A stretch of DNA of 26,821 bases from a virus (Duplodnaviria > Heunggongvirae > Uroviricota > Caudoviricetes). The position numbers and the translations under genes are program-made. Location of the stretch: the IMG/VR virus record IMGVR_UViG_2740892230_000038. The stretch is one strand, 5' to 3'. The notes under the pieces were generated by a model that ran no database searches, was not told the DNA's origin, and saw nothing but the letters and a program-made list of their open reading frames with translations. Positions 4,518 through 21,975 of this stretch are shown piece by piece (position 1 is the first letter of the stretch; each line of letters starts with the position of its first letter).

Positions 4518-6044
4518 TCAAAAATAAACCTCACCATCAACCATATATTTGAGAGTACTTATCGCCTGCTGGGCGGATATTGTTTTCATTAAAGGATAGT
4601 GTTTAAAAACAATGCCATTCATAAAATAGATATCACAGGTTTTATTATCTGTATTGATTATGATTTTTTCGAATGTTTTATAGGCAAGTGTACGACATAG
4701 CTCTCGCCCATTTTTACTGGTTAAGTCAATAGCATGAAAATCACCAAGTGAACTCACCGCTTTACTCTTCAAAGTTTTTAATGATACAGAAGCCCTTCGT
4801 AATTCCTTATCTAATACTCTGATTTTTTCTGCTATAGCGGTAACTTCAGGCGCAACAGATAATGCAGCAATTAAATTATTAATTTTCATCTGGAGCTCAA
4901 TAATTTTCAACTCTAAAGTTTCATTAGCATCTTTCTTGTTTTCAACTGGTTGGATTTTACTACAATTAAAAAGCAACTCATTAATGATATTATAATCAAC
5001 CAAATCTCTCTTTATTGATGGCCTGTCACATCGATGCAGTCTTCTCATCGGACAAACATAATAGCCATGCAAACTTCCAGATACCGCATGAACAATCATG
5101 GTATTACCACAAGCCTCGCACTTCATAACTGTTCGAAGTAGATTTATCAACATAGGATTTTTGCTACTATTGCTAATACCAAAAGGTGCCAACCGAATTT
5201 CCTGCACAGCGTAAAACAAATCATCTGATATGACTCTGGGATAATAGCCAGCGATTTCACTTATTCCTTTACCTCTTGCACGATATGAAGGTACGCATAT
5301 ACCTATCAGAGCTTTATTCGCTAATAATTTTTCAATTACAGAAGGTCCCCATGCACTTTCTTTTCCTGAGAAATTCTTTACAGCATGATCATTTAAATAC
5401 TTGGCTATTGCATTCAATGAGCGCCTTTCCATCCTGAGTTTAAAAATTAGCTCAATAGTTTTCACCCTGTCGGGGTCTGGAACAAAAGCCGTTCTTTTGT
5501 CATCCAATGAGAGCCATCTCGGACAAGACGCCGTCATAATCGTGCCTGACTCCAGTGCATCCTGCCGTTTTTTCTTCCATGATAATTTAACCCGACTTGA
5601 CTTTATCTCGCTTTCTTCATTTGCCCTTTGTGCTATAAGTATGGCTTTTATTAATGAATATGGCTCATTCAATGAGTCAATATTATAGACTGTATTATCG
5701 CAAAGAGTTATAACATCAATACCGTGATTCAAAATCAATTTCAGACGCTCAATCGCTTCACCGACTTTTTCTCTTGAAAGTCTGTCCAGACTTTCAACTA
5801 ACAATGTAGTCCCTGGCAATATATAACCATGTTCTATAGCATCTAAAAATTCCGAAAAAGCTCCTGATTGTGCATGCTTTCCATTGAATGCGCTTAACCC
5901 CAAATCTTCATACGTTACGGTATCAAGGTAATAATCACTATTTACCTTTAGCCATTCAGTAATAAGCCTTCTCTGGCGGTTTAATGAATCACCAGACATC
6001 TGACCTGGTGATGAAAATCGCATATATGCTATGGCTTTTTTCAT
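4518..6044 (-). CDS. ybcK: Large serine recombinase (YbcK-like)
   Basis: 508-aa ORF; N-terminal resolvase-type catalytic region MKKAIAYMRFSSPGQMSGDSLNRQ...; Cys-rich recombinase zinc-ribbon region; coiled-coil C-terminus. Confidence 0.85.
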   Translation of the reverse strand: MKKAIAYMRFSSPGQMSGDSLNRQRRLITEWLKVNSDYYLDTVTYEDLGLSAFNGKHAQSGAFSEFLDAIEHGYILPGTTLLVESLDRLSREKVGEAIERLKLILNHGIDVITLCDNTVYNIDSLNEPYSLIKAILIAQRANEESEIKSSRVKLSWKKKRQDALESGTIMTASCPRWLSLDDKRTAFVPDPDRVKTIELIFKLRMERRSLNAIAKYLNDHAVKNFSGKESAWGPSVIEKLLANKALIGICVPSYRARGKGISEIAGYYPRVISDDLFYAVQEIRLAPFGISNSSKNPMLINLLRTVMKCEACGNTMIVHAVSGSLHGYYVCPMRRLHRCDRPSIKRDLVDYNIINELLFNCSKIQPVENKKDANETLELKIIELQMKINNLIAALSVAPEVTAIAEKIRVLDKELRRASVSLKTLKSKAVSSLGDFHAIDLTSKNGRELCRTLAYKTFEKIIINTDNKTCDIYFMNGIVFKHYPLMKTISAQQAISTLKYMVDGEVYF

Positions 6045-6299
6045 GGTGACACCTGCTAAAGTATGCTTTTATAAACCTTAGTGGTGAGATATGATTTTTG
6101 TTTAATTTTTATTTAAAAAGACAATTAAGGTCACATTATCTTAAATATACAACAATAATCGTATTGCAATTTTCTTACACCATAATCCTGAAAGCACAAA
6201 AGAATGAATAAAAACTAAAGACATTAACAAAAAGCATAAAACGAGGCCCATATAAATATACGAACCTCCATATTTTAGTCGTTTAAAAACAAATTATTT

Positions 6300-6632
6300 T
6301 TAATGTGGTGTGCTTCGTGACAATAAATTAATAACCAACACACCGGCACAAATCAACATCATGCCTATAATGGCTGGCAGGTCCAACCGTTGGCCGAAAA
6401 ATCCCCATGATAGTAAGCTAATCAGGACAATACCGACTCCTGACCAGATAGCATAAGCAATCCCTGTAGGTATATAAGCCAGCGTCTGAGCTAATAACCA
6501 GAATGATGCACAATAACAAATAATTGTACCAACAGATGGCCATAACCGTGTAAAACCTTCTGAAAACTTCATTAAGGTTGTACCAATGACCTCTGCAAGT
6601 ATTGCACCACCAAGATAAATATAAGGATTCAT
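6300..6632 (-). CDS. emrE: Small multidrug resistance efflux protein EmrE
   Basis: 110 aa from MNPYIYLGGAILAEVIGTTLMKFSEGFTRLWPSVG...; four hydrophobic helices; matches recalled EmrE. Confidence 0.9.
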   Translation of the reverse strand: MNPYIYLGGAILAEVIGTTLMKFSEGFTRLWPSVGTIICYCASFWLLAQTLAYIPTGIAYAIWSGVGIVLISLLSWGFFGQRLDLPAIIGMMLICAGVLVINLLSRSTPH

Positions 6633-6699
6633 AGCATATTCTTTCCTGTTCAAACTGGAGAGAATTGTACTACAGTTTGAACTCAACTCACCTGTTTCA

Positions 6700-7002
6700 T
6701 CATTGTGTACCCATTGATGTTCTTTTATATACCCTCAATACCCGTTTCATCGCGGCACTCTGGCGACACTCCTTAAAAATCAAATTCGTGCTCACCTTTC
6801 CTTCCCATTCTTCTCTGGTAGCGAACCGATAATACACCGTTCGCCAGACCTTACCATCAACGACCAGGATTCCTGCCCGCGCCATTTTAGCCGCAGCCTG
6901 ATTTATGCTGGTTACCGTTGCGCCTGTTACCGCGGCAACGTCCTGCGCACAGAATTTCTTATGAGTCCCCAGGTAATGAATAATTGCCTCTTTGCCCGTC
7001 AT
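6700..7002 (-). CDS. ren: Ren-like protein
   Basis: MTGKEAIIHYLGTHKKFCAQDVAAVTGATVTSINQAAAKMARAGILVVDGKVWRTVYYRF... closely matches recalled lambda Ren; start overlaps P stop (ATGA). Confidence 0.8.
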   Translation of the reverse strand: MTGKEAIIHYLGTHKKFCAQDVAAVTGATVTSINQAAAKMARAGILVVDGKVWRTVYYRFATREEWEGKVSTNLIFKECRQSAAMKRVLRVYKRTSMGTQ

Positions 7003-8006
7003 ACCCTTGCTCCTTTCAGCCCAAACTTAGCTTTAATTTCTGCGATCTTCGCCAGCGCCTGAACACGATTTAGAGGTCTGCCGCCCATGACAGGAAGTTG
7101 TTTTACTGGTTCAGGGATCGCCTCACCACGGTTAATTCTCGCAGTCATATGGACAAGCTCATCTGCGGCCTTACGGCGTAATTCCGCATCAGTAAGCGCA
7201 TTGGCCCGCATGTTCTGATACAGGTTGGTAACCAGCCAGTAGTGCGCGTTTGATTTCCACGGATAAGACTCCGCATCCGGATACAGGCCTCGCTTCCGGC
7301 AATACTNNNNNNNNNNTATCGTCTCACCACGGTTAATTCGCGCTGTCATACAGGTCAGTTCATCGGCAGCCTTGCGCCGTAATTCCGCGTCAGTCAGCGC
7401 ATTGGCCCGCATGTTCTGGTACAAGTTGGTAACCAACCAGTAATGCGCGTTCGATTTCCACGGATAAGACTCTGCATCCGGATACAGGCCTCGCTTCCGG
7501 CAATACTCGTAAACCATATCAACCAGCTCGCTGACGTTTGGCAGTCCGGCGATAACGGATGCTTCTTCCCGGCACCATGCAACAAACTGCCCGGGTGATG
7601 GCAGAAATGGTCGATTCTGCCGACGGGCTACGCGCATTCNNNNNNNNNNCCCGGCGTTAACAGATGCTTCTTCCCGGCACCAGGCGACAAACTGCCCGGG
7701 TGATGGCAGGAATGGTCGATTCTGCCGACGGGCTACGCGCATTCCAGCGTTAACCTGTTCCATTGTGGTGATCCCGTTTTCCCGGAAAGCCAGAACCCAC
7801 TGGCGGCGGATTTCGTTCAGTTCATTCTGGTCACGGTTAGCCAGGCTCGCCGGGAAAGTTGCCAGTAACTGGCTGAACACACCGTTGATGATCTGCGCTA
7901 CCTGCTGTACCTGTGGCTTTTCGTCGTACTGTTCCGGCATGTTGTTGGCGATCCTACGCATCTGCTCACGGTCAAAGTTAACCATCTGTGCGGCGATGTT
8001 TTTCAT
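6999..8006 (-). CDS. P: Replication protein P (DnaB loader); reading frame inflated by two N10 runs and duplicated variant blocks
   Basis: MKNIAAQMVNFDREQMRRIANNMPEQYDEKPQVQQVAQIINGVFSQLLATFP... to ...AKIAEIKAKFGLKGARV matches recalled lambda P; N-runs at 7307-7316 and 7640-7649 each flanked by variant repeats of the same P segment. Confidence 0.8.
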   Translation of the reverse strand: MKNIAAQMVNFDREQMRRIANNMPEQYDEKPQVQQVAQIINGVFSQLLATFPASLANRDQNELNEIRRQWVLAFRENGITTMEQVNAGMRVARRQNRPFLPSPGQFVAWCREEASVNAGXXXXMRVARRQNRPFLPSPGQFVAWCREEASVIAGLPNVSELVDMVYEYCRKRGLYPDAESYPWKSNAHYWLVTNLYQNMRANALTDAELRRKAADELTCMTARINRGETIXXXXYCRKRGLYPDAESYPWKSNAHYWLVTNLYQNMRANALTDAELRRKAADELVHMTARINRGEAIPEPVKQLPVMGGRPLNRVQALAKIAEIKAKFGLKGARV

Positions 8007-9372
8007 AAATCCACCCCGTAAATCCAGTCAGTGTTTGTCAGGTCGAGTTTTGGTTTTCCAGCTGTCACGCCAGCCTGTTGCTTGTTACGGTTGANNNNNN
8101 NNNNATCCACCCCGTAAATCCAGTCTGTGTTTGTCAGGTCGAGTTTTGGTTTGCTGGCTGTCACGACTGCCTGTTGCTTGTTACGGTTGATTTCGAGCTG
8201 GGTCCACTTGTCGCGGANNNNNNNNNNGCCGGCTATCACGCCAGCCTGTTGCTTGTTTCGGTTGATTTCGAGCTGGGTCCACTTGTCGCGGAGTTTGGCC
8301 GGACTTAGCACGTTACCGGACCAGAAGTTGTCCTGGCATGCCCAGCGGAACAGCACGCACATGTCGCGGTGGTTACGTCCGTCACGTTCACGCATCAGGC
8401 GGATATCGTTAGCCCACCCTGCAAAATTCGGTTTTCTGGCTGATGGCGCGATGGTCTTCACCATGTCAAACATCCACTCTGCGGCGGTCAGGTCTTCTGC
8501 TGTCCCCCACTTGCTGCCGCTCTGAATCGCAGCATCCGGTTTCACCACAGGAAGGGCATTTTCTGGCTGGTCAGAGGATTCGTCAGAATTCTCGGACGAA
8601 AAAGGTTTTATATTGTCTTTTGTTAGTTTGTCTTTTGTGTTTACCTGATTCGGGTAAGTGCCTTTACCTGATTTGGGTAAACTTTTCTTACCTGACTCAG
8701 GTAAATTTACCTCTTTCAGGTAAACTTTATNNNNNNNNNNACGCCTTTACCTGATGTGGGTAAACTTTTTTTACCTGATTCAGGTAAATTTACCTCTTTC
8801 AGGTAAACTTTATTTTTCTTACCTGATTCGGGTAATGTTGACCATTCACTGACCACATTATTGATGCCGATATTCCGCCCGCTCTGAATAAGAATCCCAC
8901 GCTTTACCAGAACGCTTTTTGCAGCAGAACACTTGTGCGGCAATATCCNNNNNNNNNNAATGCCGGTATTCCGCCCGCTCTGAATAAAAATCCCACGCTT
9001 TACCAGAACACTTTTTGCAGCAGAACACTTGTGCGGCAATATCCCGGTTAATTCGGAAAGTTGCTCGTTGCTAACCCAATCCAGTTTTTTATTAAAGCCA
9101 TATGTTTTGCGCATGACAGCCAGAAAGACCAGAAGCTGGTGCTGTGTTAATCCGGCCAGCATCACAGCTTCCAGCAACTCATTTGCAATGCGCGTATAAC
9201 CATCATCGAGATCTGCCACGCGCGGCTCCTTTTGTACCGCATCCGGCACTGGAAAATTGAATATCTCAGCAGTGTTTGCCATAATTCCTCCCGCAATGAG
9301 TGTGTTACGATTTGCACCTGAAAGTCGGTTCTGTTCCAGCAGACCGGCTTTCGCCATTTCTGAACCTGTCAT
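8003..9372 (-). CDS. O: Replication initiator O, mosaic: non-lambda iteron-binding N-terminus, lambda-like C-terminus; interrupted by N10 runs
   Basis: C-terminal part (...VKPDAAIQSGSKWGTAEDLTAAEWMFDMVKTIAPSARKPNFAGW...TNTDWIYGVDL) matches recalled lambda O; N-terminal part (MANTAEIFNFPVPDAVQKEPRVADLDDGYTRIANELLEAVMLAGLTQHQLLVFLAVMRKTYG...) differs from lambda; iterons embedded in the coding sequence. Confidence 0.7.
8641..8835. repeat. Origin iterons (17-bp TTACCTGANNCGGGTAA-type repeats) inside the O gene
   Basis: ttacctgattcgggtaa, ttacctgatttgggtaa, ttacctgactcaggtaa, ttacctctttcaggtaa and further copies; adjacent AT-rich tract 8600-8640; copy count inflated by the N-run at 8731-8740. 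Confidence 0.6.
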
Positions 9373-10125
9373 ATTGCCCCCAGCATGGTGGTGACCATCG
9401 CCATCAGTGGACCAGCCAGATCCGGGTCCACACGAAACATCGACACAATGCCTTCACTCATCTCCTTCAGTTTCTGGTGGCGTGGTGCGTTGAGAANNNN
9501 NNNNNNCGCCCCCAGCATGGTAGTAACCATCGCCATCAATGGACCAGCCAGATCTGGGTCCACACGAAACATCGACACAATACCTTCACTAATTTCCTTC
9601 AGTTTCTGGTGGCGTGGTGCGTTGAGAATGACAGCCTGTTTTGCCTCACTGAGTTCCTTTTCCATTTCAGCCAACCTAGCCATGAAGCTATCCTGCTCAA
9701 CCAGGTAACCGCGATATTCCAGCGGTAGTACCGCCAGAATTGNNNNNNNNNNGCCGAGCCATGAAGCTATCCTGCCCAACCAGGTGGCCGCGATATTCCA
9801 GCGGTAGTACCGCCAGAATTGCCGGGGTCAGTTCACGCACGTTATTTCGGTATTTTTCAGAATCGAATTTGTTATCGAGGAAGCGGAACAGCTTCTGGCG
9901 TGCACGGCTGACATCATCAGGGAAATCGATGGTGCCGCCGCCCTGCTCCCGATACTCATTCACAATGAGTGTGGCAACGACATCCTGATTATCTACAGCC
10001 GACCAGGCGCGGACGGCATCACGGATTTTTTCGTGGCCTGGCACCTGTTTTGTTTGAGAACGATTTATCACCGCAGTCGGGCTAAATCCGCTAGTCTGTT
10101 GGTATGTAAGTGATTGCATAGTCAT
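9369..10125 (-). CDS. YdaT-like protein at the cII position; frame interrupted by N10 runs and duplicated blocks
   Basis: MTMQSLTYQQTSGFSPTAVINRSQ... with motif TPAILAVLPLEYRGHL resembling recalled Rac YdaT; between the cro-like gene and O; stop overlaps O start (ATGA). Confidence 0.5.
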
Positions 10126-10149: not shown

Positions 10150-10377
10150 TTAGGCGGCAGAATTACTCGCGTTAAACAATGGTGCGAGGTCGGGACGAAT
10201 ATCTGCTGGTTTAATCTTTCCACCAGTGGCTGAGACAATTTTCATTACATAGCGGGCATCAATTCCGCCACCGTGTAGCCAACGCCAAACAGTGGGTTGG
10301 GCTACACCGCATAGATCTGCCAGTCGTTTTTGACTACCTGTAATACTGATTGCGAGTTGAATGGTTTGATTTGTCAT
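10150..10377 (-). CDS. Cro-like/YdaS-like HTH regulator (immunity type 1)
   Basis: MTNQTIQLAISITGSQKRLADLCGVAQPTVWRWLHGGG...; small HTH protein divergent from a cI-like gene. Confidence 0.6.
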   Translation of the reverse strand: MTNQTIQLAISITGSQKRLADLCGVAQPTVWRWLHGGGIDARYVMKIVSATGGKIKPADIRPDLAPLFNASNSAA

Positions 10378-10487
10378 TATCAATTCCTATTGGTATTGCA
10401 ATGAATAGATAATAGCAATGCGTATTAACCCAATCAATAGCAAAACGTGTTTTGACCATCAATACGCAAGCGTATAAATTAAAACTT

Positions 10488-10769
10488 ATGAAAAAAGAAA
10501 CTCTTGCTGATCGCTTAAACCTAGCGATGGAACAATCTGGAATGTCTCAAGGCGCTCTTGCAAAGGCGTCTGGCGTAGCTCAACCCACAATCTGGAGACT
10601 GACAAGCGGCAACGCGCGCGGCTCAACAAAAATTGTTGAAATAGCTAATGCATTGGGTGTTCGAACTGAGTGGCTCTCATCAGGCATAGGCCCGATGAGA
10701 AATGACGGTCAACAATCAGGGAAGCCTGCTGTCAACCATTCCAAATACTTCAAGATTGACGTTCTTGAT
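10488..10769 (+). CDS. CI-like repressor (immunity type 1), N-terminal HTH part only; truncated by N-run at 10770
   Basis: MKKETLADRLNLAMEQSGMSQGALAKASGVAQPTIWRLTSGNARGSTKIVEIANALGVRTEWLSSG...NHSKYFKIDVLD then Ns; HTH-XRE type. Confidence 0.55.
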
Positions 10770-10855: not shown

Positions 10856-11086
10856 TTAAGCTGCGTTCTTTTCGGTGTGTGGAAACAACTTCGGAAGATC
10901 CGGGCGAATCTGGTATGCCTTCACTACTCCACCAGTAGCCGTAACAATGCTGCCGACATGTTCAGGGGATACCTTTGCTTTGTTGTGAAGCCACTTATAG
11001 ACGGCCTGCTGTGAAACTTCGCAAGCAGCGCCCAGTTTCTTTTGTGAACCAACGATATTGATCGCTGTTTTGATAGCTGGGTTCAT
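10856..11086 (-). CDS. Cro-like/YdaS-like HTH regulator (immunity type 2)
   Basis: MNPAIKTAINIVGSQKKLGAACEVSQQAVYKWLHNKAKVSPEHVG...; homologous to the ORF at 10150-10377; divergent from cI-like gene at 11191. Confidence 0.6.
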   Translation of the reverse strand: MNPAIKTAINIVGSQKKLGAACEVSQQAVYKWLHNKAKVSPEHVGSIVTATGGVVKAYQIRPDLPKLFPHTEKNAA

Positions 11087-11124
11087 AACAACCTCCGTGG
11101 TTAATTTGAATCAAGATTAAAACT

Positions 11125-11149
11125 ATGGTTGTTTTTAGTCAACAACCAT
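11125..11149. promoter_or_regulatory. Candidate operator: perfect 9-bp inverted repeat ATGGTTGTT-N7-AACAACCAT between cro-like and cI-like genes
   Basis: Read directly in the divergent intergenic region; a related half-site ggttgt occurs at 11174-11179. Confidence 0.35.
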
Positions 11150-11190
11150 TTTCGTTTGATGGGATAAAACCTTGGTTGTACATTTGGACT

Positions 11191-11880
11191 ATGAAAACAA
11201 CACTCTCAGAAAGACTTAAAGAAGCCAGATTAGCGCGAGGCCTTACACAAAAGGCGCTTGGGGATTTGGTCGGGGTTAGCCAGGCTGCTATTCAGAAAAT
11301 CGAAACAGGGAAAGCTAATCAAACAACTAAAATCGTGGAGATCGCGAACGCTTTGGGTGTGCGCGCAGAATGGTTATCTTCTGGCGTTGGAAATATGTCA
11401 GACAGTACAGTGCAACCAATACAATCAACTGTCAGCCATTCCAAATACTTCAAGATTGACGTTCTTGATATAGAAGTCAGTGCTGGGCCGGGAGTCATCA
11501 ACCGTGAGTTTGTAGAAGTTCTACGCTCGGTTGAGTACTCGTTTGACGATGCTCGTCACATGTTCGATGGTAGGAAGGCGGAAAATATCCGCATCATTAA
11601 CGTGCGTGGTGACAGCATGTCAGGAACGATCGAACCAGGTGATCTGCTGTTCGTTGATATCACAGTTAAATCTTTCGACGGTGATGGTATCTATGCGTTT
11701 CTGTACGACGACACAGCCCATGTAAAGCGCCTGCAAATGATGAAGGATAAGCTGCTGGTCATCTCTGATAACAAAAGCTACTCACCGTGGGACCCGATCG
11801 AGAAAGACGAGATGAACCGGGTGTTCATCTTCGGTAAGGTTATTGGGAGCATGCCGCAGACGTATAGGAAGCATGGGTAG
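11191..11880 (+). CDS. CI-like repressor (HTH-XRE N-terminus, LexA/S24-like C-terminal domain), immunity type 2
   Basis: MKTTLSERLKEARLARGLTQKALGDLVGVSQAAIQKIETGKANQ...; C-terminal ...NVRGDSMSGTIEPGDLLFVDITV...HVKRLQMMKDKLLVISDNKSY typical of S24 autocleaving repressors. Confidence 0.8.
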   Translation: MKTTLSERLKEARLARGLTQKALGDLVGVSQAAIQKIETGKANQTTKIVEIANALGVRAEWLSSGVGNMSDSTVQPIQSTVSHSKYFKIDVLDIEVSAGPGVINREFVEVLRSVEYSFDDARHMFDGRKAENIRIINVRGDSMSGTIEPGDLLFVDITVKSFDGDGIYAFLYDDTAHVKRLQMMKDKLLVISDNKSYSPWDPIEKDEMNRVFIFGKVIGSMPQTYRKHG

Positions 11881-11941
11881 CCATACAATAGAAGTTTTAA
11901 GATTTAAGACAATATCGTAAATTAACTGTATATGTGATCAG

Positions 11942-12895
11942 GTGAATGCCATAATGGATGCGGGCAACAATTCGGAAACCAATGATATGAAGTTCAGGAT
12001 AGTATACGACGGTCCGGCACTGGAAACGCATGAAATGAACGTGCGAGACCTTGCTCCTGCCCTTCTATCACTATCAGATGCATTAGAGGAAGCCGGTAAA
12101 ACTCTCTACGGAAACAAGACTGTTGTTTCTGTAAAAGTCAATGCATCATTTAAAGCTGGCTCATTTGGAATAGATCTGGTTGCCTCATCTACATCTTGGT
12201 TCAAACAGGCTGTTGATTTTTTATCCGGCGATTCAGCAACAGCCGCTGCGAATTTGATTGCTTTTATTGGACTCTGTCCTGGTTCTAAAGAAAAAATATG
12301 CAAAGGCCTAATTCAACTGATAAAATGGATAGGTCCAAGGAAAATAAAAAAATTACACAATTTGCCTGATAGCAACATCGAAGTCTTTGTTGATGACGAA
12401 AGCGAGATCTACGACAGTAACGTTATTGAACTTTATAAAAATATTAAACTTCGCTCTTCATTACAAGAAGTTATAAGTAAGCCATTAGAGCAGGAAGGCA
12501 TTGACAGCTTTGCCTCTACTGTCGATGATGGTTTGACATTCATGACGATCAACAAGCAAGAAGCACATTATTTCAAAGTCAATCTACCAGCAGAATCAAT
12601 AATTTCAGAGTACACAGTAGAGAAAGCCCTTCAAATTAAAAATATTTCCTTCAATGAAGGAAGCCGGTGGCGGTTTTCTGATGGTGCCAGTAGCTTTTTG
12701 GCTGAAATAAAAGACCAGAAATTCATCAGCGATATTGATAACAACACCTTAAATTTTTCTAAAGGTGATATGTTACTTGTAGATTTAAAAGTAACTCAAT
12801 ATATGATCGGAGATGCCATAAAAACCATATTCGAAATTGAGCATGTAAAAAAACAGTTGAATCCTCAAAGGCAAATAGATCTTCCATTCGAATAA
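11942..12895 (+). CDS. Hypothetical protein at the rex (post-repressor) position; AT-rich cargo gene
   Basis: 317-aa ORF (GTG at 11942; alternative ATG starts at 11954 and 11987) immediately downstream of cI-like gene and 5 nt upstream of tImm-like terminator; no family recognised. Confidence 0.6.
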   Translation: MNAIMDAGNNSETNDMKFRIVYDGPALETHEMNVRDLAPALLSLSDALEEAGKTLYGNKTVVSVKVNASFKAGSFGIDLVASSTSWFKQAVDFLSGDSATAAANLIAFIGLCPGSKEKICKGLIQLIKWIGPRKIKKLHNLPDSNIEVFVDDESEIYDSNVIELYKNIKLRSSLQEVISKPLEQEGIDSFASTVDDGLTFMTINKQEAHYFKVNLPAESIISEYTVEKALQIKNISFNEGSRWRFSDGASSFLAEIKDQKFISDIDNNTLNFSKGDMLLVDLKVTQYMIGDAIKTIFEIEHVKKQLNPQRQIDLPFE

Positions 12896-12900
12896 AGATA

Positions 12901-12927
12901 CCCGGCCACCGTGCCGGGTTTTCTTTT
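12901..12927 (+). terminator. tImm-like rho-independent terminator
   Basis: cccggc-caccgt-gccggg followed by ttttctttt; homologous copies at 19075-19101 and 16078-16103. Confidence 0.6.
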
Positions 12928-13011
12928 GCCTCCCCTCATCACACAAACCGTTCAAAAAACCACCACGACCTCGCTTCAGTTATCGCTATGCGATTCAAGT
13001 CNNNNNNNNNN

Positions 13012-17907: not shown

Positions 17908-18408
17908 ATGTCAAACATCAAAAAATACATCATTGATTACGACTGGAAAGCATCAATAGAAATTGAAATCGACCATGACGTAATGACAGAGGAAAAACTT
18001 CACCAGATTAATAATTTCTGGTCAGACTCTGAATACCGACTCAATAAACACGGCTCTGTATTAAATGCTGTATTAATCATGCTGGCGCAACATGCTCTGC
18101 TTATAGCAATTTCGAAAGACTTAAATGCATATGGTGTTGTTTGTGAGTTCGACTGGGATGATGGAAATGGTCAGGAAGGATGGCCTCCAATGGATGGAGG
18201 TGAAGGAATAAGAATTACCGATATCGATACATCAGNNNNNNNNNNAAGCGACTTAAATGCATATGGTGTTGTGTGTGAGTTCGACTGGAATGATGGAAAT
18301 GGTCAGGAAGGATGGCCTTCAATGGATGGTAGCGAAGGAATAAGAATTACCGATATCGATACATCAGGAATATTTGATTCAGATGATATGACTATCAAGG
18401 CCGTCTGA
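17908..18408 (+). CDS. Ea10-position hypothetical protein; length inflated by N-run 18236-18245 and a duplicated variant block
   Basis: MSNIKKYIIDYDWKASIEIEIDHDVMTEEKLHQINNFWSDSEYRLNKHG...; segment DLNAYGVVCEFDW(D/N)DGNGQEGWP... present twice around the N-run; lies between ral and cIII. Confidence 0.5.
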   Translation: MSNIKKYIIDYDWKASIEIEIDHDVMTEEKLHQINNFWSDSEYRLNKHGSVLNAVLIMLAQHALLIAISKDLNAYGVVCEFDWDDGNGQEGWPPMDGGEGIRITDIDTSXXXXSDLNAYGVVCEFDWNDGNGQEGWPSMDGSEGIRITDIDTSGIFDSDDMTIKAV

Positions 18409-18480
18409 GTGCGGTTTTACCGCATACCAATAACGCTTCACTCGAGGCGTTTTTCGTTATGTATAAATAAGGAGCACACC

Positions 18481-18645
18481 ATGCAATATGCCATTGCAGG
18501 GTGGCCTGTTGCTGGCTGCCCTTCCGAATCTTTACTTGAACGAATCACCCGTAAATTACGTGACGGATGGAAACGCCTTATCGACATACTTAATCAGCCA
18601 GGAGTCCCAAAGAATGGATCAAATACTTATGGCTATCCAGACTAA
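18481..18645 (+). CDS. cIII: CIII (FtsH/HflB inhibitor)
   Basis: MQYAIAGWPVAGCPSESLLERITRKLRDGWKRLIDILNQPGVPKNGSNTYGYPD matches recalled lambda CIII; aaggag SD. Confidence 0.85.
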   Translation: MQYAIAGWPVAGCPSESLLERITRKLRDGWKRLIDILNQPGVPKNGSNTYGYPD

Positions 18646-18757: not shown

Positions 18758-18802
18758 CCCCCTTTCCTGTTTTCCTAATCAGCCTGGCATTTNNNNNNNN
18801 NN

Positions 18803-18953
18803 TCTGCAAATGATGAAGGATAAGCTGCTGGTTATCTCTGATAACAAGAGCTACTCACCTTGGGACCCGATCGAGAAAGACGAGATGAACCGGGTGTTCA
18901 TCTTCGGTAAGGTTATTGGGAGCATGCCGCAGACATATAGGAAGCATGGGTAG
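18803..18953 (+). CDS. CI-like repressor C-terminal fragment (variant copy following an N-run)
   Basis: About 96 percent identical at DNA level to 11730-11880 (…LQMMKDKLLVISDNKSYSPWDPIEKDEMNRVFIFGKVIGSMPQTYRKHG); followed by a cargo-free spacer and tImm. Confidence 0.5.
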
Positions 18954-19074
18954 TACCAATTAAAAATTATCAACTGGGCATTGTGCTCATTCAGTAAAGA
19001 ACTAATTCCTATCTTTGCTCTAGGTAGTAATATTAAGCCACCGCAATAATATCTTTACCTAACGGCGTAAGAAT

Positions 19075-19101
19075 CCCGGTCACCGTGCCGGGTTTTCTTT
19101 T
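19075..19101 (+). terminator. tImm-like rho-independent terminator (cargo-free context)
   Basis: cccgg-tcaccgtg-ccggg followed by ttttctttt; downstream 80 bp homologous to 12928-13001. Confidence 0.5.
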
Positions 19102-19855
19102 GCCCTCCCCTCATCACACACACACCGTTAAAAAAACCACCATAACCTCGCTTCAGTTATCGCTATGCGATTCAAGTCACAAAATTAATTCTTTTTGCCA
19201 TCAAACATTTAATAGCAAAACACATCTAACAATAGCAATAAGTATTAATATCACCAATAGCAATAGCTATTATCACCATGTCGCAACAACACAACGATAC
19301 GGCAACCACCTGATTCACCGTTGCGATGACCGCTTAGATCCNNNNNNNNNNAAATCCATCCTAAATACAACCAGTTATATCTAAAACAACCAATAAAACA
19401 ACTTTTGTTGTTGACGATAAAACAACTATAGTTTTAAATAAGTTCATCGCAACAACACAACGATACGGCAACTACCTGATTCACCGTTGCGATGACCGCT
19501 TAGATCCGCAGTTTGAATTTCAGCAGGCTTCGGGGAGTGCGAGGGGTGAAACGGACGCGTGAACGTCGGTGTGACCAGCTGAAATCAACTCAACACTTCA
19601 TACCTCAGTTGCTTCAACGAGGCGACTTAGTTATGACAACCGGCGGCCATCCACCGCCAGATACTGCGCAACCCCTTATTTGTTCAGCAGCCCAGCTTAC
19701 GGGCAGGAGTTTTTNNNNNNNNNNTAACTCAACATTTCATACCTTAGTCGCTTCAACGAGGCGGCTTAGTTATGACAACCGGCGGCCATCCACCGCCTGA
19801 ATACGCGCAGAAGTCTCTATATGTTCAGCAGCCCAGCTTACGGGCAGGAGTTTTT

Positions 19856-20439: not shown

Positions 20440-21225
20440 ATGAGTACAGCACTCGCAACGCTGGCAGGGAAGCTGGCTGAACGTGTCGGCATGGATTCTG
20501 TCGACCCACAGGAACTGATCACCACTCTTCGCCAGACGGCATTTAAAGGTGATGCCAGCGATGCGCAGTTCATCGCATTGTTGATCGTCGCCAACCAGTA
20601 CGGCCTTAATCCGTGGACGAAAGAAATTTACGCCTTCCCTGATAAGCAGAACGGCATCGTTCCGGTGGTGGGCGTTGATGGCTGGTCCCGCATCATCAAT
20701 GAAAACCAGCAGTTTGATGGCATGGACTTTGAGCAGGACAATGAATCCTGTACATGCCGGATTTACCGCAAGGACCGTAATCATCCGATCTGCGTTACCG
20801 AATGGATGGATGAATGCCGCCGCGAACCATTCAAAACTCGCGAAGGCAGAGAAATCACGGGGCCGTGGCAGTCGCATCCCAAACGGATGTTACGGCATAA
20901 AGCCATGATTCAGTGTGCCCGTCTGGCCTTCGGATTTGCTGGTATCTATGACAAGGATGAAGCCGAGCGCATTGTCGAAAATACCGCATACACTGCAGAA
21001 CGTCAGCCAGAACGCGACATCACTCCGGTTAACGATGAAACCATGCAGGAGATTAACACTCTGCTGATCGCCCTGGATAAAACATGGGATGACGACTTAT
21101 TGCCGCTCTGTTCCCAGATATTTCGCCGCGACATTCGCGCATCGTCAGAACTGACACAGGCCGAAGCAGTGAAAGCTCTTGGATTCCTGAAACAGAAAGC
21201 CACTGAGCAGAAGGTGGCAGCATGA
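20440..21225 (+). CDS. bet: Bet (Red-beta single-strand annealing protein)
   Basis: 261-aa [77 protein letters not shown]... matches recalled lambda Bet. Confidence 0.9.
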
Positions 21226-21975
21226 CACCGGACATTATCCTGCAGCGTACCGGGATCGACGTGAGAGCTGTCGAACAGGGGGATGATGCATGGCACAAAT
21301 TACGGCTCGGCGTCATCACCGCTTNNNNNNNNNNTGCATCGTCAGAACTGACACAGGACGAAGCAGTGAAAGCTCTTGGATTCCTGAAACAAAAAGCTAC
21401 TGAACAGAAGGTGGCAGCATGACACCGGACATTATCCTGCAGCGTACCGGGATCGACGTGAGAGCTATCGAGCAGGGAGATGATGCGTGGCACAAATTAC
21501 GGCTCGGCGTCATCACCGCTTCAGAAGTTCACAACGTGATAGCAAAGCCCCGCTCAGGAAAGAAGTGGCCTGACATGAAAATGTCCTACTTCCACACCCT
21601 GCTGGCTGAGGTTTGCACCGGTGTGGCTCCGGAAGTTAATGCTAAGGCGCTGGCCTGGGGAAAACAGTACGAGAACGACGCCAGAACCCTGTTTGAATTC
21701 ACTTCCGGCGTGAATGTTACTGAATCCCCGATCANNNNNNNNNNTACTACAGAACGTCAGCCGGAACGCGACATCACCCCGGTTAACGAAGAGACCATGT
21801 CGGAAATTAACGCCCTTCTTACTTCCATGGAAAAAACGTGGGATGACGACCTCTTGCCGCTCTGTTCCCAGATATTTCGCCGCTACATTCGAGCGTCGTC
21901 AGAACTGTCCCAGGCCGAAGCAGAGAAGGTTCTTGGATTCCTGAAACAGAAAGCCACGGAGCAGAAGGTGGCAGC

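What the first reader, a model, noticed from the sequence alone, without database searches (positions are those of the whole stretch)
11881..12927. 317-aa AT-rich gene inserted between a cI-like repressor and tImm, with a cargo-free variant in the same window
In immunity type 2 the cI-like gene (ends 11880) is followed by a 317-aa ORF (11942-12895) and then the tImm-like terminator (12901-12927). A variant copy of the same repressor 3' end (18803-18953, about 96 percent identical) is followed by only about 120 bp of non-coding DNA before a homologous terminator (19075-19101) and conserved downstream sequence. The ORF therefore behaves as a discrete insertion at the repressor-tImm junction, the same hotspot that holds rexAB in lambda and repressor-linked Abi genes such as BstA in other prophages. 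I could not recognise a known domain, so BstA homology is neither confirmed nor excluded.
Basis: partly seen in the sequence, partly recalled or inferred. Interest (0 to 1): 0.8.

Follow-up and report, generated by a model that had tools for sequence, protein, structure and literature searches.

The report
Repressor-linked prophage defence-candidate cargo gene
A 313-aa gene of unknown function sits as a swappable cassette directly behind a prophage repressor gene, in the slot where phage lambda keeps its rexAB anti-phage genes; it belongs to a large uncharacterised family already listed, but never tested, as a phage-defence candidate.

Summary
A cI-type repressor (11191-11880) is followed by a 73-nt spacer, a low-GC ORF (11954-12895, 313 aa from the likely ATG; 37.7% GC vs 47.1% for cI) and a strong intrinsic terminator (12900-12929). 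A second segment (18804-19178) has the same cI 3' end (97%) and terminator flank (91%) with only 115 bp of unrelated filler between them. Both alleles are natural. The loaded one is intact in 34 of 5,426 complete E. coli genomes. The empty one occurs in phages Turner and PhiR34_1 and dominates E. coli prophages with these flanks. The window is a 10-N-joined mosaic of several lambdoid phages, and the empty copy probably comes from a hetero-immune relative. The protein is not BstA or RexA. It matches PADLOC PDC-S42 (untested candidate), NCBIfam 'LAPAL motif-containing putative phage structural protein' and phrog_3243. Across seven proteobacterial lineages, homologues lie immediately downstream of unrelated lysogeny repressors. 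Others sit in lysogeny modules of Gram-positive phages, at the Mu G/I accessory locus, or beside MADS and type III RM genes, so the 'structural' label is not supported. The model shows a soluble three-domain protein with a C-terminal OB-like barrel and no enzyme fold. Best reading: a lysogen-expressed single-gene anti-phage factor. Function and mechanism are untested.

The parts
10856..11086 (-). cro-like repressor of the lysogenic cycle, divergent from cI (immunity type 2)
   Evidence: Pfam YdaS_toxin 4e-17 and P22_Cro 8e-5. Annotated 'transcriptional regulator' in E. coli GMM060.
11125..11149 (.). operator-like palindrome ATGGTTGTTTTTAGTCAACAACCAT in the cro-cI divergent promoter region
   Evidence: 9-bp inverted repeat. 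A related AACAAC...GTTGTT motif recurs in the pL/OL region at 19395-19412. Its role as an operator is inferred.
11191..11880 (+). cI-type lysogeny repressor (HTH_3 + Peptidase_S24), 229 aa from the PGAP start; the longest ORF starts at 11125
   Evidence: Pfam Peptidase_S24 1.5e-18 and HTH_3 6.5e-13. PGAP start from L001. Annotated 'cI' in phages Turner and PhiR34_1.
11881..11953 (+). 73-nt spacer between cI and the cargo ORF, with no terminator and an AGGTG Shine-Dalgarno 9 nt before the ATG
   Evidence: No terminator-like site. Fold is no better than shuffles, z +1.05. Sequence read.
11881..12894 (+). variable cassette (1,014 bp) that replaces the 115-bp filler of the empty allele
   Evidence: Boundaries from local and multiple alignments. 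No flanking direct repeats.
11954..12895 (+). cargo gene: 313-aa protein of the PDC-S42 / LAPAL family (GTG at 11942 would give 317 aa)
   Evidence: PADLOC PDC-S42 3.4e-86. NCBIfam NF053583 1.9e-80. phrog_3243 1.3e-116. 261 close and 5,221 distant cluster representatives. AlphaFold model pLDDT 81. 37.7% GC.
12900..12929 (+). tImm-like intrinsic terminator: 7-bp GC-rich stem, 6-nt loop, TTTTCTTTT tail, starting 5 nt after the stop codon
   Evidence: dG -16.6 kcal/mol, z -3.84. Conserved in the empty allele, Turner and GMM060.
12895..13001 (+). conserved right flank shared with the empty allele, ending at the N spacer 13002-13011
   Evidence: 91% identity to 19069-19178.
18804..18953 (+). 3' end of a cI gene (empty allele); the segment begins right after N spacer 18793-18802
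   Evidence: 97.3% identity to 11731-11880. N runs mapped.
18954..19068 (+). 115-bp non-coding filler occupying the slot in the empty allele
   Evidence: Unrelated to the cassette and identical to phage Turner. No ORF of 50 aa or more.
19074..19103 (+). homologous terminator of the empty allele
   Evidence: dG -13.5 kcal/mol, z -2.5. Alignments.
19230..19272 (.). operator-like repeats (CAATAGCAATAAGTATT and CAATAGCAATAGCTATT) downstream of the empty allele, resembling the OR region of immunity type 1 (10376-10450)
   Evidence: 5 matches found where 0.12 are expected by chance.

Best explanation
The ORF is a self-contained accessory ('moron') cassette in the repressor-to-terminator slot of a lambdoid prophage. 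It most likely acts as a single-protein anti-phage (superinfection exclusion or abortive infection) factor of the PDC-S42/LAPAL family.

Shown: the cassette (gene plus 73-nt leader) replaces 115 bp of filler between two conserved joints, the 3' end of cI and the tImm terminator. It is present or absent in otherwise near-identical prophages. An analogous module (repressor 3' end, gene, terminators) is shared at 96% between two hetero-immune Pseudomonas prophages. It therefore moves by homologous recombination at conserved flanks, not by transposition.

Inferred from anatomy and precedent: the gene is co-transcribed with cI from the maintenance promoter in lysogens and terminated at tImm. It is thus made while the prophage is silent, and its transcription stops when cI is inactivated at induction.

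Predicted: the product is a soluble, acidic, cytoplasmic three-domain protein. The N-terminal alpha/beta domain carries the invariant YDGPAL...RDLAPAL segment and a poorly ordered hydrophobic helical pair. Then come a compact alpha/beta middle domain and a C-terminal OB-like beta-barrel with a conserved K-W-R-F...F-x-K-G-D face. No nuclease, NTPase, protease, TIR/SIR2 or membrane domain is detectable.

Speculative mechanism (about 0.2 on its own): the OB-like barrel recognises a cue from an infecting phage, either single-stranded or replicating phage DNA or a phage protein bound to it. The N-terminal domains then oligomerise or bind stoichiometrically to block phage DNA replication or packaging. 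The outcome would resemble BstA, rather than enzymatic degradation or RexB-type membrane depolarisation.
For: Cassette boundaries; no target-site repeats. Natural loaded alleles in 34 of 5,426 E. coli genomes, all at least 99.7% identical and single copy, one disrupted by IS1. Natural empty alleles in Turner, PhiR34_1 and in all but six of the 60 listed E. coli genomes with these flanks. No terminator or stable structure in the 73-nt spacer, and a strong terminator 5 nt after the stop. Precedent: cI-bstA is a single operon read across an 88-bp spacer in BTP1, and lambda rexAB is expressed in lysogens (PMC7067206; PMC8585504). Recurrence immediately downstream of, and co-directional with, different repressors: E. 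coli Rac-type CI_repr; Salmonella 130-aa HTH_3; Burkholderia 132-aa HTH_3; Proteus S24 cI followed by N; Pseudomonas savastanoi with two different S24 repressors; Halopseudomonas S24. Lysogeny or moron modules in Lactobacillus A2, Listeria vB_LmoS_188 and Bifidobacterium PMBT6. Defence association: PADLOC PDC-S42 3.4e-86, a candidate class derived from genes embedded in BREX, DISARM or type I RM. A mad3-like protein lies 110 bp upstream in Rhodoferax, and a type III RM methyltransferase lies 114 bp downstream in Halomonas. The Acinetobacter island contains HIRAN and BstA_C proteins. Low GC. Structure. No TM segment.
Confidence: 0.55

Rival explanations
1. Counter-defence or other phage-benefit accessory protein: the product helps its own phage, for example by inhibiting a host immune system or a competing element, rather than protecting the lysogen.
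For: In two Mu-like prophages the homologue lies exactly between Mu G and the protease/scaffold gene I. In Pseudomonas Mu-like phages that locus holds the anti-CRISPR operon (PMC3993853; PMC4378225). The protein is acidic (pI 5.0), as many anti-defence proteins are. No toxic or enzymatic effector domain was found. The sampled close relatives lie mostly in temperate phages or prophages.
Against: In lambdoid prophages it sits in the repressor operon, which is expressed during lysogeny and not at the start of infection, when anti-defence is needed. It also occurs outside prophages, next to host defence genes: mad3, type III RM and the Acinetobacter island. At 313 aa with three domains it is large for typical anti-defence proteins (own knowledge).
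Confidence: 0.15
2. Lysogenic-conversion or host-physiology moron unrelated to phage-phage conflict (for example stress tolerance, virulence, or modulation of lysogeny and induction), expressed with cI simply because that promoter is active in lysogens.
For: Lambda also expresses non-defence morons (lom, bor) in lysogens (PMC7067206). bstA was first reported as a virulence-associated gene (same paper). Neighbour contexts in the broad sample are mostly heterogeneous and not defence-related. No defence-typical effector domain was found.
Against: The protein is cytoplasmic, with no signal peptide or TM segment, unlike surface or virulence morons. The family spans many phyla and habitats, including CPR bacteria and environmental MAGs, where a host-virulence role is implausible. 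The link to many different repressor types argues against a specific regulatory partnership with cI. It is listed by PADLOC on the basis of embedding within defence systems.
Confidence: 0.2
3. Virion structural or morphogenesis protein, as the NCBIfam name ('LAPAL motif-containing putative phage structural protein') suggests.
For: NCBIfam NF053583 equivalog hit at 270 bits against a cutoff of 60. Homologues lie between the head genes G and I in two Mu-like prophages.
Against: In the window and in 7 of 9 sampled lineages the gene lies in the immunity region, behind the repressor and before a terminator. In three Gram-positive phages it lies next to the integrase or repressor. Near-identical phages (Turner, PhiR34_1) and most prophages with these flanks lack it yet include viable phages. 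It also occurs in non-prophage islands. The Mu G/I junction is a known accessory-gene locus. BFVD and PDB fold searches return no virion protein.
Confidence: 0.03
4. Scaffold artefact: the loaded/empty contrast results from mis-assembly or deletion in a chimeric scaffold, and the ORF is not a mobile unit.
For: The window is a mosaic of 22 segments joined by 10-N spacers, with bubble-like overlapping alleles. The empty copy starts at a spacer and is only about 91% identical overall to the best natural records, because its operator stretch differs.
Against: Both configurations are found uninterrupted in finished genomes and isolated phages.
Confidence: 0.02

Closest known systems
PADLOC PDC-S42 (phage defence candidate; Payne et al. 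2024 preprint, 10.1101/2024.01.29.577857)
   Same: Full-length HMM match, E 3.4e-86, residues 15-316 on model positions 3-300 of 302. Single-gene unit. Some homologues adjoin defence systems.
   Different: PDCs were nominated by 'guilt by embedding' in BREX, DISARM or type I RM and are untested. The repressor-operon location described here is a separate, independent line of context evidence. I could not find PDC-S42 in the paper's held text or supplements.
Lambda RexA/RexB exclusion system
   Same: Same genomic slot (between cI and tImm, co-directional with cI). The product is expected in lysogens. The cytoplasmic protein is similar in size to RexA (279 aa).
   Different: No sequence relationship to RexA (hhalign probability 0.2%). 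There is no RexB-like membrane partner: a single gene is followed directly by the terminator, and the product has no TM segment.
BstA (BTP1-type prophage abortive-infection protein with aba self-immunity element)
   Same: Single gene immediately downstream of the prophage repressor, presumably sharing its promoter. Spread across Gram-negative prophages with different repressors (PMC8585504). The proposed outcome (a non-enzymatic block of phage replication) is modelled on BstA.
   Different: No KilA-N or BstA_C domain and no PADLOC BstA hit. hhalign probability is 0.1% against a BstA_C protein. No aba-like repeat-flanked element was found. The fold is different (C-terminal OB-like barrel).
NCBIfam NF053583 'LAPAL motif-containing putative phage structural protein' / phrog_3243
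   Same: Member by score (270 bits vs cutoff 60; phrog_3243 1.3e-116). The LAPAL motif is present (RDLAPALLSL).
   Different: The 'structural' part of the name is unsupported by context: the gene lies in immunity, lysogeny or accessory loci, not virion modules. PHROGs lists the function as unknown.
Anti-CRISPR / accessory operon between Mu G and the protease/scaffold gene in Mu-like phages
   Same: Two homologues occupy exactly this junction. It is another hotspot for horizontally acquired, low-GC accessory genes.
   Different: Known occupants are small Acr proteins with an Aca regulator. This protein is 300 aa, was not scanned against Acr or Aca families here, and in most sampled close relatives lies elsewhere.
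OB-fold ssDNA-binding proteins (SSB, PriB, RPA, Stn1/Ten1)
   Different: Sequence identity is about 10%, only one domain of three matches, and the domain is acidic (pI 4.97). There is no sequence-level relationship to any PDB chain. This is fold resemblance only.

Membership tests
PADLOC PDC-S42 | Full-length match to the PDC-S42 HMM | tested here: met
   E 3.4e-86, 287.5 bits, residues 15-316 vs model 3-300 of 302.
PADLOC PDC-S42 | Homologues found embedded in, or adjoining, known defence systems (the basis for nominating PDCs) | tested here: inconclusive
   Immediate neighbours include a mad3-like protein (E 9e-101), a type III MTase (E 1e-148), a type III REase, MzaA, and OLD/AriA/PtuA-like ATPases in a minority of 78 species loci, plus a BstA_C protein in the Acinetobacter island. 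No background rate was computed and ORF calls were crude.
PADLOC PDC-S42 | Anti-phage activity | not testable with these tools
   PDCs are described as untested. No paper mentions PDC-S42, the LAPAL motif or WP_000338655.
NCBIfam NF053583 LAPAL_fam | HMM score above the curated cutoff, and the LAPAL motif | tested here: met
   270.4 bits vs cutoff 60. 'RDLAPAL' at residues 31-37 is invariant or near-invariant in 60 homologues.
NCBIfam NF053583 LAPAL_fam | Structural (virion) role implied by the name: location among virion genes, indispensability for particles | tested here: not met
   The gene is in the immunity region here and in 7 of 9 sampled lineages, and absent from near-identical viable phages. 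Only 2 of 76 species loci lie among head genes, at the G/I accessory junction. Virion proteomics is not testable here.
BstA | N-terminal KilA-N-like domain | tested here: not met
BstA | BstA C-terminal domain / BstA HMM | tested here: not met
   No BstA_C hit in Pfam. PADLOC returns only PDC-S42. hhalign vs a BstA_C protein gives probability 0.1%.
BstA | Gene immediately downstream of the prophage repressor | tested here: met
   This feature is described for bstA in PMC8585504.
BstA | Cognate aba DNA element (about 63 bp with terminal direct repeats, overlapping the gene start) | tested here: inconclusive
   No significant direct or inverted repeat in 11881-12930. A sequence-unrelated functional analogue cannot be excluded without experiments.
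Lambda RexAB | RexA homologue | tested here: not met
   hhalign of the family profile vs lambda RexA: probability 0.2%.
Lambda RexAB | RexB-type polytopic membrane partner in the same operon | tested here: not met
   The single ORF is followed after 5 nt by the terminator. The product has no TM segment (maximum Kyte-Doolittle 1.31).
Lambda RexAB | Position between cI and tImm, transcribed with cI | tested here: met
   Position shown (lambda layout). Co-transcription is inferred from the terminator-free 73-nt spacer.
OB-fold nucleic-acid-binding domain | Five-stranded beta-barrel superposable on SSB, PriB or RPA | tested here: met
OB-fold nucleic-acid-binding domain | Binding of ssDNA or RNA | not testable with these tools
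   Conserved aromatic and basic residues (K238, W239, F233, K270) are compatible with binding, but the domain pI is 4.97.

The most novel reading that the evidence does not exclude
PDC-S42/LAPAL is a very widespread (over 5,000 clusters at 50% identity, many phyla), always standalone, non-enzymatic anti-phage protein with a fold combination not seen in any characterised defence system. Temperate phages of unrelated types repeatedly plug it into whichever locus is transcribed in the lysogen (repressor operon, integrase-proximal moron site, Mu G/I accessory locus). It would sense infection through an OB-like barrel and stop phage replication or assembly stoichiometrically, and shut-off of the repressor operon at induction would provide built-in self-immunity.
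Probability: 0.3. Interest if true: 0.65.

Novelty: new member of a known kind. Interest (0 to 1): 0.42.

Why it matters
The cI-to-N slot of lambdoid prophages is a proven source of anti-phage systems (rexAB, bstA). This work shows that an uncharacterised but very large protein family uses that slot, behind many unrelated repressors and in several bacterial orders. That independently supports its listing as a defence candidate. It also corrects a misleading RefSeq product name ('putative phage structural protein') now spreading through E. coli annotations. Natural isogenic pairs exist (loaded prophages in 34 E. coli genomes, empty-slot phages such as Turner), so the hypothesis is cheap to test. 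If confirmed, it would add a single-gene defence with no recognisable effector domain, and therefore probably a new mechanism. If not confirmed, it remains an ordinary moron polymorphism.

Tried and rejected
- **BstA homology:** rejected. No KilA-N or BstA_C domain, no PADLOC BstA hit, and hhalign probability 0.1%.
- **RexA homology:** rejected.
- **Structural protein (NCBIfam name):** rejected on context.
- **Transposon-like insertion:** no flanking direct repeats or terminal inverted repeats. The boundaries coincide with conserved recombination joints instead.
- **Internal aba-like or RNA element:** only chance-level short repeats. Rfam finds nothing in the region.
- **Membrane effector:** no TM segment.
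- **Sequence relatives with solved structures:** none, with either the single sequence or the profile.
- **Domain fusions as functional hints:** the top 150 of 5,221 representatives are all standalone proteins of about 300 aa.
- **AFDB Foldseek:** the library was unavailable.
- **Literature:** no hits for PDC-S42, 'LAPAL motif' or WP_000338655. HepS (Nature 2026) was checked and is an unrelated HEPN protein. PDC-S42 was not found in the held supplements of the PADLOC preprint.
- **Family-wide repressor linkage:** not supported. Only about 6-8 of 78 species-representative loci have an HTH or S24 gene upstream, so the linkage belongs to the proteobacterial prophage sub-clade.
Full report
**1. 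What is in the sequence**

The window is not one contiguous genome. It holds 22 segments joined by 10-N spacers. Many neighbouring segments overlap as alternative alleles that are 88-96% identical. That pattern fits a scaffold or bubble-like collapse of several co-occurring lambdoid phages.

The segment 10780-13001 reads as a classical lambdoid immunity region.
- A cro-like gene lies on the minus strand at 10856-11086 (YdaS/P22_Cro HTH).
- A divergent control region follows, with an operator-like palindrome at 11125-11149.
- A cI-type repressor with HTH_3 and Peptidase_S24 domains ends at 11880.
- A 73-nt spacer comes next.
- The ORF in question runs 11942-12895 from GTG. RefSeq starts identical copies at the ATG equivalent to 11954, giving 313 aa.
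- Five nucleotides after the stop comes a GC-rich hairpin with a T-tract at 12900-12929 (dG -16.6 kcal/mol, z -3.8).

The ORF is 37.7% GC, against 47.1% for cI and 45.4% for the window.

**2. The loaded versus empty comparison**

Local alignment shows two conserved flanks.
- 11731-11880 matches 18804-18953 at 146/150 (E 5e-71).
- 12895-13001 matches 19069-19178 at 100/110 (E 5e-39).

Between these flanks lie 1,014 bp in one allele and 115 bp of unrelated, ORF-free filler in the other. Similarity stops exactly at the cI stop codon and resumes just before the terminator stem. This is a cassette replacement between two conserved joints. There are no flanking direct repeats that would indicate transposition.

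The empty copy begins immediately after an N spacer, so it is a separate scaffold piece. Its downstream operator-like repeats (19230-19272) resemble the OR region of the window's other immunity type (10376-10450). They do not resemble the AACAAC/GTTGTT operators of the loaded type, which appear in the next segment at 19395-19412. The two cI alleles converge on the same C-terminal-domain sequence (10730-10769 = 11430-11469). The empty copy therefore most likely belongs to a hetero-immune relative that shares the cI 3' end.

**3. Both alleles are natural**

The full cI-ORF-terminator unit is found uninterrupted, at 98-99% identity, in 34 complete E. coli chromosomes.

The ORF itself occurs in exactly 34 of 5,426 genomes. 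It is always single copy and chromosomal, all copies are at least 99.7% identical, and one is split by IS1.

In E. coli GMM060 the gene order is replication genes, cro, cI, ORF, kil, gam, bet, exo.

Phages Turner and PhiR34_1 carry the same cI at about 99% identity but lack the ORF. Turner's filler is identical to the window's 115 bp.

A query of cI plus the terminator-to-kil flank, with the cargo removed, finds 1,148 genomes holding both flanks in one place. In the 60 best rows, six have the loaded span of 2,390 bp and the rest have the empty span of about 1,492 bp.

The scaffold-artefact worry is therefore answered for the biology. What remains true is that the two alleles in the window need not lie on one molecule.

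**4. What the protein is**

Pfam has no model for it. Three other libraries do.
- PADLOC PDC-S42: E 3.4e-86, full length.
- NCBIfam NF053583, 'LAPAL motif-containing putative phage structural protein': 270 bits against a cutoff of 60.
- phrog_3243, function unknown: E 1.3e-116.

PDCs are phage defence candidates nominated because homologues are embedded in BREX, DISARM or type I RM loci. The authors state that the 145 candidates are untested (10.1101/2024.01.29.577857). I found no paper mentioning PDC-S42, the LAPAL motif or the RefSeq protein.

The family is large.
- 261 close cluster representatives.
- 5,221 representatives at 50% identity with E up to 1e-3, the top 150 all standalone proteins of about 300 aa.
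- At least 306 species representatives across Proteobacteria, Desulfobacterota, CPR lineages, Melainabacteria and others.

Invariant positions cluster in two regions. One is an N-terminal YDGPAL...M.VRDLAPAL segment. The other is a C-terminal F...KW.F.DG...F.A.I.D..F...F.KGD.L segment.

**5. Structure**

AlphaFold2 with a 60-sequence alignment gives mean pLDDT 81; residues 120-300 are mostly above 90. A separate model of residues 1-212 has pTM 0.81.

BFVD returns uncharacterised phage proteins, one of them DUF6575, and no virion component. No PDB chain is related by sequence or profile.

The protein has no TM segment. Its pI is 5.0, and the OB-like domain alone is 4.97.

It is therefore a soluble three-domain protein with no recognisable catalytic or membrane effector module.

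**6. Tests against the named comparators**

BstA is excluded as a family. There is no KilA-N or BstA_C domain, no PADLOC BstA hit, and hhalign probability against a BstA_C protein is 0.1%. No repeat-flanked internal element resembling aba was found (aba features from PMC8585504).

Lambda RexA, the protein in the same slot of lambda, is unrelated (hhalign probability 0.2%). There is no RexB-like partner.

**7. Genomic context of homologues**

This is the most informative evidence. In sampled contigs the homologue lies immediately downstream of, and co-directional with, the lysogeny repressor in these cases.
- E. coli Rac-type prophages: 155-aa CI_repr, then the homologue, then KilR, RecE and RecT.
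- Salmonella: 130-aa HTH_3 repressor opposite a P22-type Cro.
- Burkholderia: 132-aa HTH_3 repressor.
- Proteus: S24 cI, then the homologue, then N.
- Halopseudomonas: S24 repressor.
- Pseudomonas savastanoi: the identical protein follows two different S24 repressors in two different prophages.

In the Pseudomonas pair the shared DNA is 1,373 bp at 96% identity. It starts in the last ~28 nt of the repressor genes and ends after two terminators, where the pL regions diverge. This is the same module structure as in the window.

Intergenic distances are 58-115 bp in most cases.

In isolated phages the family appears only in three Gram-positive temperate phages, always in the lysogeny or moron module.
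- Lactobacillus A2 ORF19 lies between the endolysin and the integrase.
- Listeria vB_LmoS_188 ORF27 lies at the end of the repressor-side operon, next to the integrase.
- Bifidobacterium PMBT6 has it next to the integrase.

In Acinetobacter pittii and Yersinia the homologue lies in small non-prophage islands. The Acinetobacter island also holds a HIRAN protein and a BstA_C protein.

**8. Limits of the context argument**

I made a crude census of the nearest ORFs in 80 species-representative loci at 34-41% identity. Most neighbourhoods are heterogeneous.
- Upstream: HTH_3 in 6 and Peptidase_S24 in 4 of 78.
- Defence-model hits at E up to 1e-5 in a minority. These include mad3/mad8-like proteins in 3, OLD/AriA/PtuA-type ATPases in 2-3, PDC-M63B in 1, and one each of type III MTase, type III REase, MzaA and a DRT-like reverse transcriptase.
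- Two concrete examples: a 1,086-aa mad3-like protein 110 bp upstream in Rhodoferax, and a type III methyltransferase 114 bp downstream in Halomonas.

No background rate was computed, so this is suggestive only. The repressor linkage is a property of the proteobacterial prophage sub-clade, not of the entire family.

**9. The 'structural protein' label**

In two Mu-like prophages (Halothiobacillus, Vreelandella) the homologue sits inside the head cluster, in the order portal, F, G, homologue, I (protease/scaffold), T. This is probably the source of the NCBIfam guess.

The G/I junction is exactly where Mu-like Pseudomonas phages carry their anti-CRISPR accessory operon (PMC3993853). It is also a low-GC region of genomic plasticity (PMC4378225).

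Near-identical viable phages lack the gene, and it sits in the immunity region elsewhere. A virion role is therefore unlikely. The Mu context does keep a counter-defence function alive as a rival.

**10. How it most likely works**

Shown: a discrete, recombination-exchanged module in the repressor-terminator slot, polymorphic among near-identical prophages.

Inferred: co-transcription with cI in lysogens.
- The 73-nt spacer has no terminator or stable structure.
- The terminator follows immediately after the ORF.
- In BTP1, cI and bstA form one operon read from a single start site across an 88-bp spacer.
- Lambda rexAB is expressed in lysogens, and the repressor-to-n interval is a recognised moron hotspot (PMC7067206; PMC8585504).

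Such placement gives expression while the prophage is dormant. Transcription shuts off when cI is inactivated, which would limit self-targeting at induction (inference).

Function: anti-phage exclusion is the best-supported reading, and I put the whole package at about 0.55. The grounds are the slot, the independent PADLOC nomination, sporadic links to defence genes, low GC, and patchy presence (0.6% of E. coli genomes).

Mechanism is speculative, about 0.2. No enzymatic or membrane module is present. I therefore favour ligand sensing by the OB-like barrel, with the ligand being a phage replication intermediate or a phage protein. A stoichiometric or oligomerisation-based block of replication or assembly would follow. 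The acidity of the barrel argues against simple ssDNA binding.

**11. Novelty and score**

The hotspot is known. The family is already catalogued and already flagged as a candidate, and nothing here demonstrates function. This is a new member of a known kind.

New contributions are these.
- Precise cassette boundaries.
- Natural loaded and empty pairs.
- Recurrent linkage to many different repressors.
- Exclusion of BstA and RexA homology.
- The domain architecture.
- Evidence that the spreading RefSeq product name is probably wrong.

Interest is moderate (0.42). It is a well-framed, cheap-to-test candidate rather than a surprise.

Noticed in passing
whole window; N runs at 7307, 7640, 8095, 8218, 8731, 8949, 9497, 9743, 10770, 13002, 18236, 18793, 19342, 19715, 21325, 21735, 22406, 22704, 23794, 24594, 25090: The window consists of 22 segments joined by 10-N spacers. 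Many neighbouring segments overlap as 88-96% identical alternative alleles (for example 7117-7306 vs 7318-7507, 9376-9496 vs 9508-9628, 18118-18235 vs 18250-18367, 21139-21324 vs 21336-21521). It looks like a chimeric or bubble-collapsed scaffold of several lambdoid phages, so synteny across spacers should not be trusted.
   Followed up: partly
window 10150-10769 and 19230-19272: There is a second immunity region ('type 1'): a cro-like YdaS gene at 10150-10383 (-) and the N-terminal part of an HTH_3 cI at 10452-10769 (+), cut by an N spacer. Its OR repeats (10376-10450) resemble the repeats downstream of the empty slot (19230-19272). The two cI alleles share the same C-terminal-domain sequence (10730-10769 = 11430-11469).
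   Followed up: partly
window 18468-18526 (+): Rfam Lambda_thermo (the cIII thermoregulator element) matches at 88.5 bits, E 1.3e-20. It is the only Rfam hit in the window.
   Followed up: no
window 4518-6044 (-) and 6300-6686 (-): The lowest-GC stretch of the window (31-40% GC) encodes a 508-aa large serine recombinase (Resolvase + Recombinase + Zn_ribbon_recom) and a 128-aa SMR/EmrE-type small multidrug-resistance protein. From memory this resembles the ybcK-emrE cargo of DLP12-like prophages. Neither hits PADLOC.
   Followed up: partly
window 19352-19507; L001 about 10880-11250: In the natural loaded prophage (GMM060) and in phage Turner, no N-like antiterminator gene is annotated between the terminator/pL region and kil. 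A conserved, apparently non-coding leader of about 300 nt follows the putative pL (CGCAACAACACAACGATACGGCAAC...GACCGCTTAGATCC...). It has no Rfam hit. Whether it is a nut- or put-type RNA element was not examined.
   Followed up: no
E. coli STEC388, NZ_CP041425.1 3561511-3563228: One of the 34 E. coli copies of the gene is interrupted by an IS1A element.
   Followed up: no
L003-L006 (Acinetobacter pittii), locus coordinates 5467-9067: A small non-prophage island holds, in order, a 109-aa ORF, the LAPAL homologue, a 210-aa HIRAN-domain protein, a 78-aa ORF and, on the opposite strand, a 304-aa BstA_C-domain protein. It looks like a compact defence-type island.
   Followed up: no
window 17908-18408 (+) and 18246-18408: A DUF2528 protein gene is duplicated as two 95%-identical partial alleles across the N spacer at 18236-18245. 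This is another example of allele stacking in the scaffold.
   Followed up: no
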